Below are positions 844 to 3,813 of a stretch of DNA of 27,381 nucleotides, piece after piece. The notes below the pieces were generated by a model. The model ran no database searches and had not been told where the DNA came from. It saw nothing but the letters and a program-made list of their open reading frames with translations. The first letter of the stretch is position 1. Every line of letters starts with the position of its first letter. The stretch is from Candidatus Portnoybacteria bacterium (GTDB taxonomy: Bacteria; Patescibacteriota; Minisyncoccia; RBG-13-40-8-A; JAUWHN01): contig JAUWHN010000011.1 in assembly GCA_030605865.1 (NCBI GenBank), positions 1-27,381 on the forward strand, read 5' to 3'. Made by a program: the position numbers and the translations under genes.

Positions 844-880
844 AATAAGGGCATTTCTGTTGGGGTTTAAGGATTTACTT

Positions 881-909
881 TTGACATTATTTTAGGATTA
901 TGATAGGAT
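881..909 (+). promoter_or_regulatory. sigma70-type promoter, cassette 1
   Basis: TTGACA(881-886)-17 nt-TAGGAT(904-909) with extended -10 TG; SD AAGGAGG at 933-939. Confidence 0.75.
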
Positions 910-944
910 AGAACGTTGAGCTATCTTTAACAAAGGAGGGACAA

Positions 945-1280
945 TTGTCCAAGAAAAAAGAAATAGAATGGGAAAGCTGGGGTGTTCAACCTCGCGAAGA
1001 TGGCGTTAAACGAATCACAGATCCTTTTCATTGTCTTTATTGTAACTGTACCTCATCCGAGTTAACATTTCATCAGTTTATGATTGGATATTCAGCAGAT
1101 ACAAACTTTATAGTAATGGAATGTCCAGGATGTTTTGGAAAATTTTATCATCACATTGATCAAGGTAATATTAATGCAGTTACGCTTATAGTAGAAGATG
1201 GAAACAAGGACTTTTTTAAAGTTCCTGGCACATATGAAAAACTTTCAAAAATGATTGAGAGACAAAAAAAGAAGAAATGA
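945..1280 (+). CDS. small hypothetical protein, probable Zn-binding (CxxC...CxxC); cassette 1
   Basis: TTG start 5 nt after AAGGAGG; CLYC and CPGC motifs; own promoter and terminator. Confidence 0.75.
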   Translation: MSKKKEIEWESWGVQPREDGVKRITDPFHCLYCNCTSSELTFHQFMIGYSADTNFIVMECPGCFGKFYHHIDQGNINAVTLIVEDGNKDFFKVPGTYEKLSKMIERQKKKK

Positions 1281-1319
1281 GGGGTTTTTTAATTAAGCCA
1301 AAAAGACCTCTCTTTTTTT
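1279..1319 (+). terminator. rho-independent terminator, cassette 1
   Basis: GAGGGGTTTTTT pairs with AAAAAGACCTCTC (with G-U pairs), followed by T7. Confidence 0.7.
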
Positions 1320-1345
1320 ATCCCCAAAACTTTCGGAGGCGTATA

Positions 1346-1376
1346 TTATTTATTCCTCCAACTCAATAAATGGCGT
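1346..1376 (+). repeat. junction repeat copy 1 (truncated after half of the palindrome)
   Basis: TTATTTATTCCTCCAACTCAATAA (1346-1369) is identical to 1576-1599, followed by ATGGCGT. Confidence 0.85.
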
Positions 1377-1378
1377 AG

Positions 1379-1406
1379 TTGACAACTTATTCCAACTCGT
1401 TATACT
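1379..1406 (+). promoter_or_regulatory. sigma70-type promoter driving a non-coding unit
   Basis: TTGACA(1379-1384)-16 nt-TATACT(1401-1406). Confidence 0.7.
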
Positions 1407-1411
1407 AGAAG

Positions 1412-1580
1412 TAGTTAGTACCTTTTGGGAAACGCCTAAGAATTATCTGCCTCTCAATCTCATTCTAAGCTTAAGCATCTATATCTCCACTTTTAGCTTA
1501 TTGTTTAAGCGAAGGCTATGGCGTTTCCCACCTGTTCTTTTATCGAAATATTGCGCCCTTGTTTCGGCAAGGGCCTTATT
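1412..1580 (+). ncRNA. putative structured small RNA of unknown family (RNA cassette)
   Basis: Own promoter; perfect 11-bp closing stem TGGGAAACGCC(1426-1436)/GGCGTTTCCCA(1520-1530); inner stem GCTTAAGCA(1469-1477)/TGTTTAAGC(1502-1510); terminator at 1555-1574; no sizeable ORF on + strand. Confidence 0.55.
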
Positions 1581-1584
1581 TATT
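1555..1584 (+). terminator. terminator of the RNA cassette
   Basis: GCCCTTG-TTTCGG-CAAGGGC followed by a T-rich tract (CTTATTTATT). Confidence 0.65.
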
Positions 1585-1689
1585 CCTCCAACTCAATAAT
1601 AATATGGCGTCATTCAATGACGCCATATTACGTAAAAGGTGGTCAATTACTTGACAAAACATTGGGATGGGAGTATAATGAAAAGTAAG
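1576..1689 (+). repeat. junction repeat copy 2 (about 110 bp: TTATTCCTCCAAC box + 31-bp palindrome + promoter)
   Basis: Aligns to 2691-2796 at roughly 80% identity by manual alignment, with one 4-nt indel; perfect palindrome 1600-1630; promoter TTGACA(1651-1656)-17-TATAAT(1674-1679). Confidence 0.9.
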
Positions 1690-1719
1690 TCAAAAATCAA
1701 AACAAGGAGGTATTAACAA

Positions 1720-2190
1720 ATGAAAAAAACAAAATTCTGGTTGGAACTTCTGTTTGGCTTGTTGCTTCTTTTTCTCGCAATCTTTTTGGTACACGTTGGT
1801 GTAAGTGAAAAAGTAGATATCGACGACTTGGTACTCTTTTATGTTTTTGCGGCCCTCTTTTTCTTTATAGGTGTGCTTTTTCTTATGGCGGCAGGTGGTT
1901 GCATGGCGAGAGGATTTCGGAGAGATTATTTATTAGATAGGATGGAATACAGAAAAGACATTGAATCTCGTGGCAAAGGCAATGACTATGTCAGATTGTT
2001 ATTATCCGAAGCTGATAAAGAGAATAGCTTTCATCCTTCTATAAGTTTCCATTCAATCCACGGCGGTCAGCTTTTAGACAAAAACGGCCATATGTTAACG
2101 AAGCTTCCAGAAACCTTTCTTGTAAGGAAGACGGAAAAAGAAGGAAAAACCGTATATCATATTTTGCCAACCAGAACAAATGAAGCGTAG
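1720..2190 (+). CDS. hypothetical membrane protein (two N-terminal TM helices plus soluble domain); cassette 2
   Basis: SD AAGGAGGT at 1704-1711; two hydrophobic segments; own promoter and terminator. Confidence 0.75.
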   Translation: MKKTKFWLELLFGLLLLFLAIFLVHVGVSEKVDIDDLVLFYVFAALFFFIGVLFLMAAGGCMARGFRRDYLLDRMEYRKDIESRGKGNDYVRLLLSEADKENSFHPSISFHSIHGGQLLDKNGHMLTKLPETFLVRKTEKEGKTVYHILPTRTNEA

Positions 2191-2203
2191 CTTCTGAATT
2201 CTC

Positions 2204-2241
2204 GGGGGTCAGGATTTCGGTCTTGCCCCCCCCTTTTTTTT
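2204..2241 (+). terminator. rho-independent terminator, cassette 2
   Basis: GGGGG-T-CAGGAT-TTCG-GTCTTG-CCCCC followed by T8; UUCG loop. Confidence 0.8.
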
Positions 2242-2270
2242 ATCCTCAAAACTTTCAAGGGGTAAAAGTA

Positions 2271-2298
2271 TTGACAAATTATTGGATTGTGATAGAAT
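2271..2298 (+). promoter_or_regulatory. sigma70-type promoter, cassette 3
   Basis: TTGACA-16-TAGAAT with TG extension; the 26-nt segment starting GGATT matches the cassette 1 promoter at 23/26. Confidence 0.75.
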
Positions 2299-2339
2299 AG
2301 AATGTTGAGTTCTTAAATAATTTATTTTCAGGAGGAATT

Positions 2340-2621
2340 ATGACAGTAAAAGAAAAAGATAAAAAAAGTGTAGTGGTTCTTATTAACTCAGACCCTAGTG
2401 TTAAGGATAAGATTAATAACACAATCCGTGAATTTCTTAAAGAAAAAGGATTAACGACTGGGAAAGAACCCATAGATAAGCCTATTTCAAGCCCATTTAT
2501 TGTTTTTGTCCTTAAAAGAGAGCAGATTGTCTCTCTTAATTTATCTCTTTTTAAAAAAGAATTTTCTGAGAAAACAGGTTTTGTTGCTGAAGAGAATTTT
2601 ATAGTCGTAATCAGGCATTAA
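2340..2621 (+). CDS. small hypothetical protein; cassette 3
   Basis: AGGAGG at 2330-2335; promoter upstream and terminator downstream. Confidence 0.7.
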   Translation: MTVKEKDKKSVVVLINSDPSVKDKINNTIREFLKEKGLTTGKEPIDKPISSPFIVFVLKREQIVSLNLSLFKKEFSEKTGFVAEENFIVVIRH

Positions 2622-2651
2622 TAAAAATCTTAGAGATAAACCAAGTCTTTT

Positions 2652-2692
2652 TAAGCCCCTGGTTCAGGTCAACTGTACTGGGGTGCTTTTTT
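2652..2692 (+). terminator. terminator, cassette 3
   Basis: AAGCCCCTGGT...ACTGGGG-T-GCTT followed by a T-run. Confidence 0.7.
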
Positions 2693-2796
2693 ATTCCTCC
2701 AACTTAATAAATGGCGTCATTGAATGACGCTATTTTACGCAAAGAGCAGTTAATTGCTTGATAAATTATTGGTATGGGTGTAAAATGGAAAGTAAG
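2691..2796 (+). repeat. junction repeat copy 3 (box + palindrome + promoter of cassette 4)
   Basis: Homologous to 1580-1689; palindrome AAATGGCGTCATT-G-AATGACGCTATTT (2709-2735); TTGATA(2758-2763)-17-TAAAAT(2781-2786). Confidence 0.9.
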
Positions 2797-2833
2797 CGTG
2801 GTGCTTATGATTCTTTAACAAAAGGAGTAAACA

Positions 2834-3121
2834 ATGAATGAAACAGAATTTAAAGCAGGAGAACTTTACAAGATTATTGATGTAGGAGAAGGATCTATTG
2901 CTTATCATCCAAACAAAGATGATTATATTAACAAGATAGTTAAACTTATTTATTTCTTTGGCAAGTGGAAAAGCGGCTGGGTAGGATGCAATATTACTTT
3001 CCAGCAGGACTTCACATTGACAGATAAGAGAACTGGAAAAAAAATTCATCGTAAAAAAGGATGGTGGGCTTCTTTTCACGAGGTCAAATTAGAAAAAGTC
3101 CAAATCTTTCTTCTCTACTAA
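2834..3121 (+). CDS. small hypothetical protein, possibly SH3-like beta-barrel; cassette 4
   Basis: SD AAGGAG at 2822-2827; pattern FKAGELYKII...KIVKLI...W..F..VKLEKV. The fold assignment is inference only. Confidence 0.7.
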   Translation: MNETEFKAGELYKIIDVGEGSIAYHPNKDDYINKIVKLIYFFGKWKSGWVGCNITFQQDFTLTDKRTGKKIHRKKGWWASFHEVKLEKVQIFLLY

Positions 3122-3183
3122 GCCCCTAACTCATCAACCTTTATAATGGGTTGTCCAAAACAAATGAGTTAGGGTGCTTTTTT
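3119..3183 (+). terminator. terminator / structured element, cassette 4
   Basis: CCCTAACTCAT(3124-3134)/ATGAGTTAGGG(3164-3174) 11-bp stem, inner CAACC/GGTTG, then T6. Confidence 0.75.
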
Positions 3184-3195
3184 ATTTCAAAACCC

Positions 3196-3224
3196 TTGAC
3201 AAAATATTGATATGGGTGTATAAT
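3196..3224 (+). promoter_or_regulatory. sigma70 consensus promoter, cassette 5
   Basis: TTGACA-17-TATAAT; 26/30 identical to the cassette 2 promoter (1651-1680). Confidence 0.85.
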
Positions 3225-3290
3225 GTAGATATTGAAGAGTGTGGAAGTTCCACAAATCTTTTCTTTGACAATTTTTATTGGAGGAAAAAG

Positions 3291-3566
3291 ATGAAAACTT
3301 CTAAGAAAGTTTTGATTATTGTCTTAGTGTTTACAGTCTTTTTAATATTCATATTGATATTAGCGGCTTATGGGAGTTGGATTGTAAATGCGGTTGTTCA
3401 TGTAGCTACTGCTCTTTTTCAGGGGATTGTTTCTCTGTTTGAGTTTATTTTCTACCCGGATGGATTTTTCCAGCTTTTCGGACCCGTTGGTTCCGGCTTG
3501 GTTATTGGCTTGATAATGGTCTTGATGGTTTTGATTGTTAGGAAACTTTTAGTAATAAAAGTGTAG
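3291..3566 (+). CDS. small membrane protein (two hydrophobic segments); cassette 5
   Basis: GGAGG at 3280-3284 puts the start at ATG 3291 (MKTSKK..., 91 aa), not the GTG at 3174 in the ORF track, which lies upstream of the promoter. Confidence 0.75.
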   Translation: MKTSKKVLIIVLVFTVFLIFILILAAYGSWIVNAVVHVATALFQGIVSLFEFIFYPDGFFQLFGPVGSGLVIGLIMVLMVLIVRKLLVIKV

Positions 3567-3597
3567 TAGGAAATAAGTCATTATTTGAAACAAGAAT

Positions 3598-3630
3598 GGG
3601 GGCTACTTAATAAAGTAGTCCTTTCGTTTT
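3598..3630 (+). terminator. terminator, cassette 5
   Basis: GGGGCTACT-TAATAA-AGTAGTCCT followed by TTCGTTTT. Confidence 0.65.
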
Positions 3631-3657
3631 AATGTTATTTCAAAGAGGGGAATTTTA

Positions 3658-3685
3658 TTGACACCTTTATTTCATTTGTTATACT
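3658..3685 (+). promoter_or_regulatory. sigma70-type promoter driving a hairpin RNA
   Basis: TTGACA(3658-3663)-16-TATACT(3680-3685) with extended -10 TG. Confidence 0.7.
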
Positions 3686-3691
3686 AAATTT

Positions 3692-3765
3692 GCCGGCGGA
3701 CTAGCACCCACAAAAGACGTAGATTTGGGGTTTGTACTTCCGCCGGCTTTCGGTTTTAAAAAGCC
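3692..3765 (+). ncRNA. putative small hairpin RNA or regulatory leader, unknown family
   Basis: Perfect 9-bp GC stem GCCGGCGGA(3692-3700)/TCCGCCGGC(3739-3747) starting at the predicted +1; alternative pairing GGCTTT/AAAGCC (3745-3765). Confidence 0.45.
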
Positions 3766-3813
3766 ACCTCGCAAAATTGGTGATGAGATGGATAATATGA
3801 TAAAATATAAAAG

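What the first reader, a model, noticed from the sequence alone, without database searches (positions are those of the whole stretch)
1346..1599. RNA-only cassette flanked by an exact 24-bp direct repeat, suggesting a recent insertion
Seen: TTATTTATTCCTCCAACTCAATAA occurs identically at 1346-1369 and 1576-1599. It brackets a 230-bp repeat-to-repeat unit containing a promoter, a structured RNA and a terminator. The left copy carries only the first half of the palindrome (ATGGCGT), while the right copy continues into the full palindrome. Inference: this is the pattern expected from single-crossover integration of a small circle at the repeat. Excision would restore a single intact junction.
Basis: partly seen in the sequence, partly recalled or inferred. 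Interest (0 to 1): 0.75.

Follow-up and report, generated by a model that had tools for sequence, protein, structure and literature searches.

The report
Small-RNA cassette between conserved junction boxes
The exact 24-bp repeat is real, but it is a conserved junction box of a strain-variable array of self-contained mini-genes in a tiny-genome (Patescibacteria) bacterium; the small-RNA unit it brackets is an old, reshuffled member of that array, not a demonstrably recent 230-bp insertion.

Summary
Observation confirmed. TTATTTATTCCTCCAACTCAATAA is identical at 1346-1369 and 1576-1599. It brackets a promoter, a roughly 165-nt structured RNA and a terminator. A third copy (22/24) lies at 2687-2710.

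Interpretation partly supported. The box is not an insertion scar. The same 24-mer sits in arrays of distant relatives, usually directly after a terminator hairpin, with no RNA unit beside it. The RNA unit and its left box/half-palindrome junction are shared with lineages that differ by 9-15% in the neighbouring gene, so the junction is old. One relative has the RNA unit without a left box.

Four cold-seep metagenomes and about ten related contigs gave no 230-bp empty site and no circle junction. They did show heavy cassette reshuffling at other repeated junction parts. RNA and cassette 2 are lost together between 22-bp repeats. Cassette 2 forms a clean occupied/empty pair between 36-bp promoter repeats. 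In some strains the whole array is missing.

Best reading: recombination between repeated promoter/terminator junction modules, as in the PeSL cassettes of T4-type phages, here in a bacterial chromosome with an sRNA gene as cargo. No integron integrase is present. This scan has noted similar arrays in other CPR genomes.

The parts
1279..1319 (+). Terminator hairpin and T run of cassette 1 (111-aa zinc-ribbon-like ORFan, 945-1280)
   Evidence: Read from the sequence. The ORF is and has no Pfam, PADLOC or PHROG family.
1313..1334 (+). 22-bp post-terminator repeat TTTTTTTATCCCCAAAACTTTC ('D8'), copy 1. Copy 2 is at 2235-2256.
   Evidence: family D8, 95% identity. There are only two copies in the genome. 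Run X2 joins 1324 to 2247, skipping 922 bp.
1346..1369 (+). Junction box copy 1 (TTATTTATTCCTCCAACTCAATAA). Here it is not preceded by a terminator hairpin.
   Evidence: and the junction table.
1370..1382 (+). Left half plus centre of a degenerate palindrome (ATGGCGTAGTTGA). It breaks at the palindrome centre, where the -35 of the RNA promoter begins.
   Evidence: It matches the L038 palindrome ATGGCGTAATTCA at 11 of 13 positions and J3 ATGGCGTCATTGA (family D2).
1379..1406 (+). Promoter of the RNA unit, TTGACA-16-TATACT
   Evidence: 11 of 12. It is conserved in L019 and L032. Homology with L032 starts exactly at 1379.
1411..1582 (+). Roughly 165-170-nt structured small RNA. It has a 10-bp closing stem (1427-1436 with 1520-1529), an internal stem with two hairpins (one at 1496-1510), a single-stranded linker at 1530-1553 and a terminator.
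   Evidence: Folds. Pair 1499-1507 is U-A here, C-G in L019, and U.G in L032 and in runs X5 and X7. No Rfam family matches. The ends are predicted, not measured.
1555..1584 (+). Intrinsic terminator of the RNA unit (8-bp GC-rich stem plus T-rich tail). The tail is the 5' part of box copy 2.
1576..1599 (+). Junction box copy 2, identical to copy 1
1600..1630 (+). 31-bp perfect palindrome (operator-like), centred 36 bp upstream of the -35 of the cassette 2 promoter
   Evidence: (I10). The only other copy in the genome is at 2711-2733.
1651..1679 (+). Promoter of cassette 2 (TTGACA-17-TATAAT)
   Evidence: 12 of 12.
1720..2190 (+). Cassette 2, a 156-aa membrane ORFan. It is the right-hand neighbour of the RNA unit here and in L032.
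   Evidence: homologues at 49-88% identity in metagenomes only.
2235..2256 (+). D8 repeat copy 2, after the cassette 2 terminator
2687..2733 (+). Box copy 3 (22/24) directly followed by the second palindrome, upstream of the cassette 4 promoter

Best explanation
The window's first 3.8 kb holds a strain-variable array of self-contained units, each a sigma70-type promoter, a small ORFan or RNA, and an intrinsic terminator. It lies between a surface-protein (LTD) gene and a TIG-domain gene in a roughly 0.5-Mb Patescibacteria genome from cold-seep sediment. The units are joined by a small kit of array-specific spacer modules: the 24-bp box that follows terminator hairpins, the 22-bp D8 motif, a 23-31-bp palindrome and paralogous promoters. 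The two identical 24-mers are two instances of the box module. One is the tail of the RNA unit's own terminator. The other belongs to an old junction in which a box-palindrome spacer was broken at the palindrome centre and joined to the RNA promoter. Units are gained, lost and reordered by recombination between whichever repeated modules flank them. The route is most likely homologous recombination, by unequal crossover, by deletion and possible mini-circle re-insertion, or by exchange after DNA uptake. This is the mechanism described for PeSL cassettes of T4-type phages. The RNA unit is one such cargo: an independently transcribed small RNA of about 165 nt with a strongly conserved 3' domain. 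Shown here: the repeats, the modules, the RNA's conservation and covariation, the variable neighbours, and occupied/empty pairs for other units. Inferred: the recombination route, that the box itself serves as a crossover point, transcription of the RNA, and its function (probably regulatory).
For: The box is a conserved module. The exact 24-mer occurs in L017, L023 and L038, and variants occur in L019, L032 and L033. It follows a terminator hairpin in 8 of 11 distinct junctions. L017's homologous LTD-gene DNA is only about 66% identical. The box, D8 and the palindrome occur only in this array within the genome. The RNA unit has three different left neighbours: cassette 1 here, a 73-aa ORF in L019, L119, L121 and L122, and another ORF in L032. 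It has two right neighbours: cassette 2 or cassette 4. Occupied/empty pairs exist at other repeats: cassette 2 between promoter copies in L019 versus a single promoter in L119, and joint 1324->2247 between D8 copies in X2, with L038 showing a cassette 1 homologue followed directly by a P3-type unit. Strains exist in which the LTD stop codon is joined to promoter 5 or promoter 3, exactly at the first base of the -35 (joints 844->3196 and 843->2271). L032 joins the D8+GGAGG filler directly to a palindrome, so the left flank of J1 and the right flank of J2 are natural partners. No integron integrase is present. The only tyrosine recombinase is Xer-like and lies on another contig, and there is no serine recombinase. 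The PeSL mechanism is described in PMC2839356. For the RNA, the 3' 65 nt are 100% and 98.5% identical to L019 and L032, against 85-91% for the cassette 2 coding sequence, and two pairs show compensatory change.
Against: No crossover product that uses the 24-mer itself was seen, so its role as a recombination substrate is inferred by analogy with D8 and the promoters. 24 bp is short for efficient RecA-type recombination. Exact conservation of the box across diverged relatives could reflect a sequence-specific function, such as protein binding or a recombinase site, that this model does not explain. Many metagenomic joints carry 12-32 unrelated letters between the two sides (table 5c). Some differences are therefore replacements rather than simple crossovers. 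Only contigs were available, and no RNA data.
Confidence: 0.6

Rival explanations
1. One reading: a 230-bp circle carrying box + ATGGCGT + promoter + RNA + terminator integrated recently by a single crossover at a resident box, and can excise to restore one junction.
For: The geometry fits: identical 24-mers, a half palindrome on the left and a full one on the right. L032 shows that the D8-filler flank and a palindrome-promoter flank can be contiguous without an RNA unit. In L019-type genomes the unit is again bracketed by boxes but has other neighbours. PeSL mini-circles are a precedent.
Against: No 1369->1600 joint and no 230-bp back-joint appeared in four runs. The left junction is shared with lineages 9-15% diverged, so it is not recent. 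L032 has the unit without a left box. Identity of the 24-mers carries no dating information, because the same 24-mer is exact in distant arrays. The blocks actually seen to come and go are 922 bp (RNA + cassette 2) and the cassette 2 unit, at other repeats.
Confidence: 0.1
2. Site-specific system: the box and/or the palindrome (12-bp arms around a 7-bp centre) are recognition sites of a recombinase. Candidates are the genome's Xer-type enzyme or one of two RAYT-like Y1 proteins. The array would then be an integrase-less, integron-like cassette platform.
For: The box is exactly conserved where the surrounding DNA has diverged. J1 breaks at the palindrome centre. The L038 palindrome carries a symmetric double change, so the dyad is kept. 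A 15-nt box core is a clean indel between otherwise homologous junctions in L032 and the window. Two weak Y1_Tnp hits exist on C37 and C49.
Against: Breakpoints are scattered over at least five kinds of module: the LTD stop, D8, the palindrome edge, the -35 start and the 5' UTR. No recombinase gene lies in or beside the array in the window, L119 or L038. The Xer-like protein scores far below the integron-integrase cut-off (93 against 265 bits). The Y1 hits are at or below family cut-offs. The modules are not dispersed in the genome like REPs. Every unit has its own promoter, unlike integron cassettes.
Confidence: 0.12
3. Pure expression signal: the box is only part of a particular terminator/spacer design (U-tract plus downstream element, or a regulator site acting with the palindrome). 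It is conserved by selection, and its duplication around the RNA unit has no bearing on mobility.
For: Its T-rich 5' part is the terminator tail in 8 of 11 junctions. It sits at a fixed distance before the palindrome and promoter in J2, J3, L033 and L038.
Against: It is absent from equivalent terminator-palindrome junctions in L034, L032 and X7, so it is dispensable for them. It is restricted to this array rather than used genome-wide. At the RNA unit's left junction it has no hairpin to serve.
Confidence: 0.15

Closest known systems
PeSL (promoter-early stem-loop) cassettes in the hyperplastic regions of T4-type phages RB49/phi1 (Arbiol et al. 2010, PMC2839356)
   Same: Repeated spacers combine a strong sigma70-type promoter with a terminator stem-loop and flank ORFans. 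Relatives differ by presence, absence or replacement of the flanked gene, with one chimeric spacer at the empty site. Excision as a mini-circle and re-insertion is the proposed route.
   Different: Here the array lies in a bacterial chromosome next to murB, hpf and secA, not in a phage. The box and the palindrome gave no hits in the viral collection. The spacers carry extra array-specific parts (24-bp box, D8, palindrome). One cargo is an RNA-only unit. Circles have not been shown.
Morons of temperate phages (autonomous promoter-gene-terminator units; definition as cited in PMC2920897)
   Same: Each unit has its own promoter and terminator and is variably present between relatives.
   Different: There is no prophage context. 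The units form a tandem array with shared junction modules rather than single insertions between phage genes.
Integrons and integrase-less cassette arrays (CALINs)
   Same: A co-oriented array of small, mostly unknown genes whose number and order differ between strains, with a repeated element at cassette boundaries.
   Different: No IntI is present. The box has no RYYYAAC/GTTRRRY cores and no attC-type bulged hairpin. Every unit carries its own promoter. Breakpoints are not at one fixed position.
Similar arrays noted by this scan in other CPR genomes (e1-2063935 Nealsonbacteria, e1-1081050 Levybacteria-like, e1-1079754 Uhrbacteria, e1-2064350 Komeilibacteria)
   Same: Small ORFan units with their own promoter and terminator, copied junction modules, and a gene set that varies between relatives. 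These are AI notes and I did not re-test them.
   Different: The junction sequences differ. Those notes do not describe an sRNA-only unit bracketed by an exact box.

Membership tests
PeSL-type modular shuffling cassettes | Repeated intergenic module combining a sigma70-like promoter and a terminator stem-loop | tested here: met
   Promoters score 10-12 of 12 and terminators are present at every junction. Promoters and spacers are paralogous.
PeSL-type modular shuffling cassettes | Modules flank ORFans in a hyperplastic region that differs between close relatives | tested here: met
   The cassette proteins have no family. Order and content differ among the window, L019, L119, L032, L033, L034, L038 and four runs.
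PeSL-type modular shuffling cassettes | Occupied/empty pairs with a single chimeric module at the empty site | tested here: met
   Met for cassette 2 (L019 versus L119) and for the 922-bp RNA + cassette 2 block (X2 joint 1324->2247). Not found for the 230-bp RNA unit itself.
PeSL-type modular shuffling cassettes | Mini-circle products of recombination between flanking modules | not testable with these tools
   Only Logan contigs were served. The 'goes back 920' joint in X5 can equally reflect a different cassette order, as in L032.
PeSL-type modular shuffling cassettes | Resides in a T4-type phage genome | tested here: not met
   The context is chromosomal: MurB, ribosome hibernation factor and SecA. 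The box and the palindrome have no viral-contig matches.
Integron | IntI-type tyrosine recombinase next to the array | tested here: not met
   The genome has one tyrosine recombinase, on contig C1. It is Xer-like (about 218 bits to XerC/XerD) and scores 93 bits against a cut-off of 265 for the integron integrase model.
Integron | attC sites with RYYYAAC / GTTRRRY cores at cassette ends, and promoterless cassettes | tested here: not met
   The box sequence contains neither core (read). Each unit has its own promoter.
Transposable element with target-site duplication | The direct repeat is created from the target at insertion, so it is unique to the site; the element has terminal inverted repeats or a transposase | tested here: not met
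   The same 24-mer occurs at unrelated junctions in L017, L023 and L038. The 230-bp unit has no terminal inverted repeats and no transposase.
REP/RAYT or IS200-IS605-type hairpin elements | Hairpin repeats dispersed through the genome, with a cognate Y1 transposase | tested here: not met
   The box, D8 and the palindrome are confined to this array. The Y1_Tnp hits are weak (25 and 20 bits against a cut-off of 23; the NCBIfam RAYT model scores 35 against 80) and lie on other contigs.
Any Rfam RNA family | Covariance-model score at or above the gathering threshold | tested here: not met
   No hit at gathering threshold in the window. Only chance-level hits in 1250-1750.

The most novel reading that the evidence does not exclude
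The box and palindrome are sites of a dedicated, so far unrecognised recombination system in Patescibacteria, using the Xer-type or a RAYT-like enzyme in trans. It would move promoter-to-terminator units, including sRNA genes, as tiny circles. That would be an integron-like gene-capture platform without an integrase gene or attC sites.
Probability: 0.1. Interest if true: 0.8.

Novelty: new variant of a known kind. Interest (0 to 1): 0.45.

Why it matters
Patescibacteria have very small genomes and few recognisable mobile elements. How they gain and vary accessory genes is therefore an open question. This locus shows a compact answer: a chromosomal hot spot where promoter-to-terminator mini-genes are swapped between co-occurring cold-seep strains at reusable junction sequences. 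That is the mechanism described for T4-type phages. It also shows that the cargo can be a small RNA gene. The RNA is lineage-specific: it was not found in the 15 other genomes of the order that were searched. Its strongly conserved 3' domain makes it a candidate regulator in a group where almost no sRNAs are known.

Tried and rejected
- Rfam, at gathering and permissive thresholds, gave no family for the RNA, for the second RNA-like element or for the L030 unit.
- A covariance model of the RNA found only the window, L019 and L032. It found nothing in 15 other genomes of the order.
- A stem pattern scan of genome contigs gave three hits, none of which matched the RNA model. The same scan of viral contigs gave none.
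- No listed run holding this stretch is on record as RNA, so expression is untested.
- Read laying had contigs only. The absence of a 230-bp deletion or circle joint cannot exclude rare forms.
- Exact-protein look-ups of cassettes 1 and 2 found nothing on record. Homologue searches were needed instead.
- Whole-length RNA duplex predictions between the sRNA and the array's mRNAs were no better than shuffles (z from -1.6 to +0.8). They give no target.
- The 56-aa ORF at 1518-1688, which spans the terminator, box and palindrome, is rejected. Indels in L019 and L032 break its frame.
- The idea that the RNA and cassette 2 form an obligate pair is rejected. L119 has the RNA without cassette 2.
- A literature search for Patescibacteria cassette arrays found nothing relevant.
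- Most 20-mer box hits in public collections were Firmicutes-type ribosome-binding regions on the other strand, and so chance matches.

Full report
**Observation.**
The 24-mer TTATTTATTCCTCCAACTCAATAA is present without mismatch at 1346-1369 and 1576-1599. Its 20-nt core, allowing up to 3 mismatches, occurs three times in the window against 0.02 expected. The third copy is at 2687-2710 (22/24). These are the only copies in the 505-kb, 49-contig genome, and the window is the whole of contig C29.

- Copy 1 runs on into ATGGCGT and then AG-TTGACA.
- Copy 2 runs on into TAAT and then the perfect palindrome at 1600-1630.
- Copy 3 runs straight into a second palindrome at 2711-2733.
- Between copies 1 and 2 lie a promoter (TTGACA-16-TATACT, 11/12), a terminator (1555-1574 plus T tail) and a sequence that folds better than shuffles.
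- A Logan contig of run X1 spans 815-1623 with one difference, so the structure is not a local misassembly.

**Context.**
- Upstream is the 3' end of a beta-helix/lamin-tail-domain gene.
- Downstream are a TIG-domain gene, murB, a hibernation factor and secA.
- The closest SecA relatives are Patescibacteria. The runs that hold the stretch are cold-seep and sediment metagenomes.
- Positions 880-3800 are a co-oriented series of units, each with its own promoter and terminator: five small ORFans and two RNA-like units. The ORFans have no Pfam, PADLOC or PHROG family.
- The spacers are built from a few modules that occur nowhere else in the genome: the box, a 22-bp motif TTTTTTTATCCyCAAAACTTTC (1313-1334 and 2235-2256), the palindrome, and paralogous promoters.

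**Relatives.**
A metagenome scan with the box core, and look-ups of cassette homologues, recovered related arrays. Unit order in each:

| Source | Order of units |
|---|---|
| Window | c1, RNA, c2, c3, c4, c5, RNA2 |
| L019/L121 | orphan LTD-gene tail, 73-aa ORF, RNA, c4, c2, c5 |
| L119 | same as L019/L121 but without c2 |
| L032 | another ORF, RNA, c2, c4 |
| L034 | c2, RNA2 |
| L038 | OLD-type ATPase, LTD tail, two other genes, c1 homologue, a P3-type unit, then box + palindrome |
| L017 and L023 (more distant) | other cassettes, but the exact 24-mer after a terminator |

- In 8 of 11 distinct junctions the box directly follows a terminator hairpin, and its T-rich start is the terminator tail. 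The three exceptions are the left junction of the RNA unit.
- Equivalent terminator-to-palindrome junctions exist without the box in L034, L032 and X7.

**What this does to the insertion reading.**
- Identity of the two 24-mers says nothing about age. The same 24-mer is exact in arrays whose homologous coding DNA is about 66% identical.
- The left junction (box, ATGGCGTAG, TTGACA) is shared by the window and the L019-type genomes. Their cassette 2 coding sequence is only 85% identical, and their sequence upstream of the box is unrelated. That junction therefore predates their split.
- In L032 the RNA unit starts at the -35 with no box. The stop codon of the upstream ORF overlaps TTGACA.
- Four runs laid at 85% likeness gave no 1369->1600 joint and no 230-bp back-joint.
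- Other joints were found:
  - 844->3196 and 843->2271: the LTD stop is joined to the first base of the -35 of promoter 5 or promoter 3.
  - 1324->2247: RNA plus c2 are removed between the 22-bp repeats.
  - 2231->1312: c2 is followed by the J1-type filler and box.
  - 2239->2711 and 2789->1704.
- L019 against L119 is a clean occupied/empty pair. In L019, c2 lies between two ~36-bp copies of the promoter; in L119 there is one promoter and no c2.
- L032 joins the D8-GGAGG filler directly to a palindrome. The left flank of J1 and the right flank of J2 are therefore natural partners. An ancestral placement of the RNA unit into such a spacer is plausible, but it is old, and its breakpoint is the palindrome centre.

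**The RNA.**
- Three distinct sequences (window, L019-type, L032) support a 10-bp closing stem, an inner stem and two hairpins.
- Two pairs change on both sides. Pair 1499-1507 is seen as U-A, U.G and C-G when the X5 and X7 variants are included.
- The 3' 65 nt are 100% and 98.5% identical to L019 and L032. The 5' part is 82-85% identical and c2 is 85-91% identical.
- The RNA matches no Rfam family. A covariance model found it in none of 15 other genomes of the order.
- Its ends, expression and function are untested. A trans-acting regulatory role is my inference. In L019-type strains it could also be reached by read-through from the 73-aa gene, which has no terminator and ends inside the box.

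**Mechanism and rivals.**
Breakpoints fall on at least five kinds of repeated module. No recombinase gene lies in or next to any version of the array. The genome has one Xer-like tyrosine recombinase, no serine recombinase and two weak Y1-type hits elsewhere. Recombination between homologous junction modules is therefore the simplest account (confidence 0.6).

The rivals are:
- A site-specific system acting on the box or palindrome (0.12). It is kept alive by the box's exact conservation, the break at the palindrome centre and the symmetric change in the L038 palindrome.
- A pure expression-signal role for the box (0.15).

**Comparison with known systems.**
The closest described system is the PeSL cassettes of T4-type phages. 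There, promoter plus stem-loop repeats flank ORFans and recombine to delete, insert and circularise them (PMC2839356). The lead to that paper came from earlier notes of this scan on other CPR genomes and phages, and I checked it by reading the paper.

This locus shares the architecture and the occupied/empty logic. It differs in four ways:
- It is chromosomal.
- Its spacers carry extra array-specific parts.
- It includes an RNA-only unit.
- No circles have been demonstrated.

It fails the defining tests for an integron, for a transposon with target-site duplication, and for REP/RAYT elements (see the membership table).

**Verdict.**
The finding is a real part of an interesting, strain-variable cassette array. 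The specific claim of a recent insertion by a 230-bp circle at the 24-mer is not borne out by the data that could be reached. I rate it a new variant of a known kind, with interest 0.45.

Noticed in passing
window 3658-3799: A second promoter-driven RNA-like element (TTGACA-16-TATACT, then a 9-bp GC stem hairpin) lies upstream of the TIG-domain gene. It is 81-95% identical in four other genera of the family, far more conserved than anything else in the array. It matches no Rfam family.
   Followed up: partly
L019 (minus strand) about 1757-1880; L038 2190-2340; L119 4200-4326; L017 three copies: Orphan copies of the last 30-130 nt of the LTD-gene coding sequence, including its stop codon, recur as junction pieces. 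In L019, L119 and L038 the full LTD gene is replaced by other genes upstream. In L017 the tail is repeated before successive cassettes.
   Followed up: partly
L019 (minus strand) about 100-720 versus L119 5340-5420: A clean occupied/empty pair. Cassette 2 is flanked by two ~36-bp copies of the same promoter in L019 and L121. L119 has one promoter and no cassette 2.
   Followed up: yes
L030 3690-3930: In a more distant relative (cassette 2 homologue 52% identical), an unrelated promoter + ~200-nt structured non-coding + terminator unit (fold z -3.4) sits just upstream of the cassette 2 homologue. It has no Rfam match. RNA-only units may be regular members of these arrays.
   Followed up: partly
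L038 4650-4672: A palindrome variant, ATGGCGTAATTCAATTACGCCAT, differs from the window's copy by a symmetric pair of changes (C->A and G->T). The dyad is therefore preserved, as expected for a protein-binding or hairpin-forming site.
   Followed up: no
L019 1442-1663 (minus strand); also L119, L121, L122: A 73-aa membrane-type ORF has no terminator and ends inside the box. The box is read as ...F I P P T Q stop, so in these strains the box is coding and the RNA unit could be co-transcribed.
   Followed up: partly
window 1386-1403: The spacer of the RNA promoter (CTTATTCCAACTCGTTA) resembles the box minus TCC. The three positions at which the window differs from L019 and L032 here all match the box, which hints at local gene conversion.
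   Followed up: no
genome contigs C37:13597-14295 and C49:2465-3214: Two 232-249-aa ORFs give weak IS200-like Y1 transposase / RAYT hits, at or below family cut-offs. No dispersed REP-like repeat related to the array was found.
   Followed up: partly
L038 192-1976: An OLD-family (AAA_15 + TOPRIM) ATPase, a defence-type gene, lies directly upstream of the array in one relative. The locus may behave as a variable defence or accessory island.
   Followed up: no
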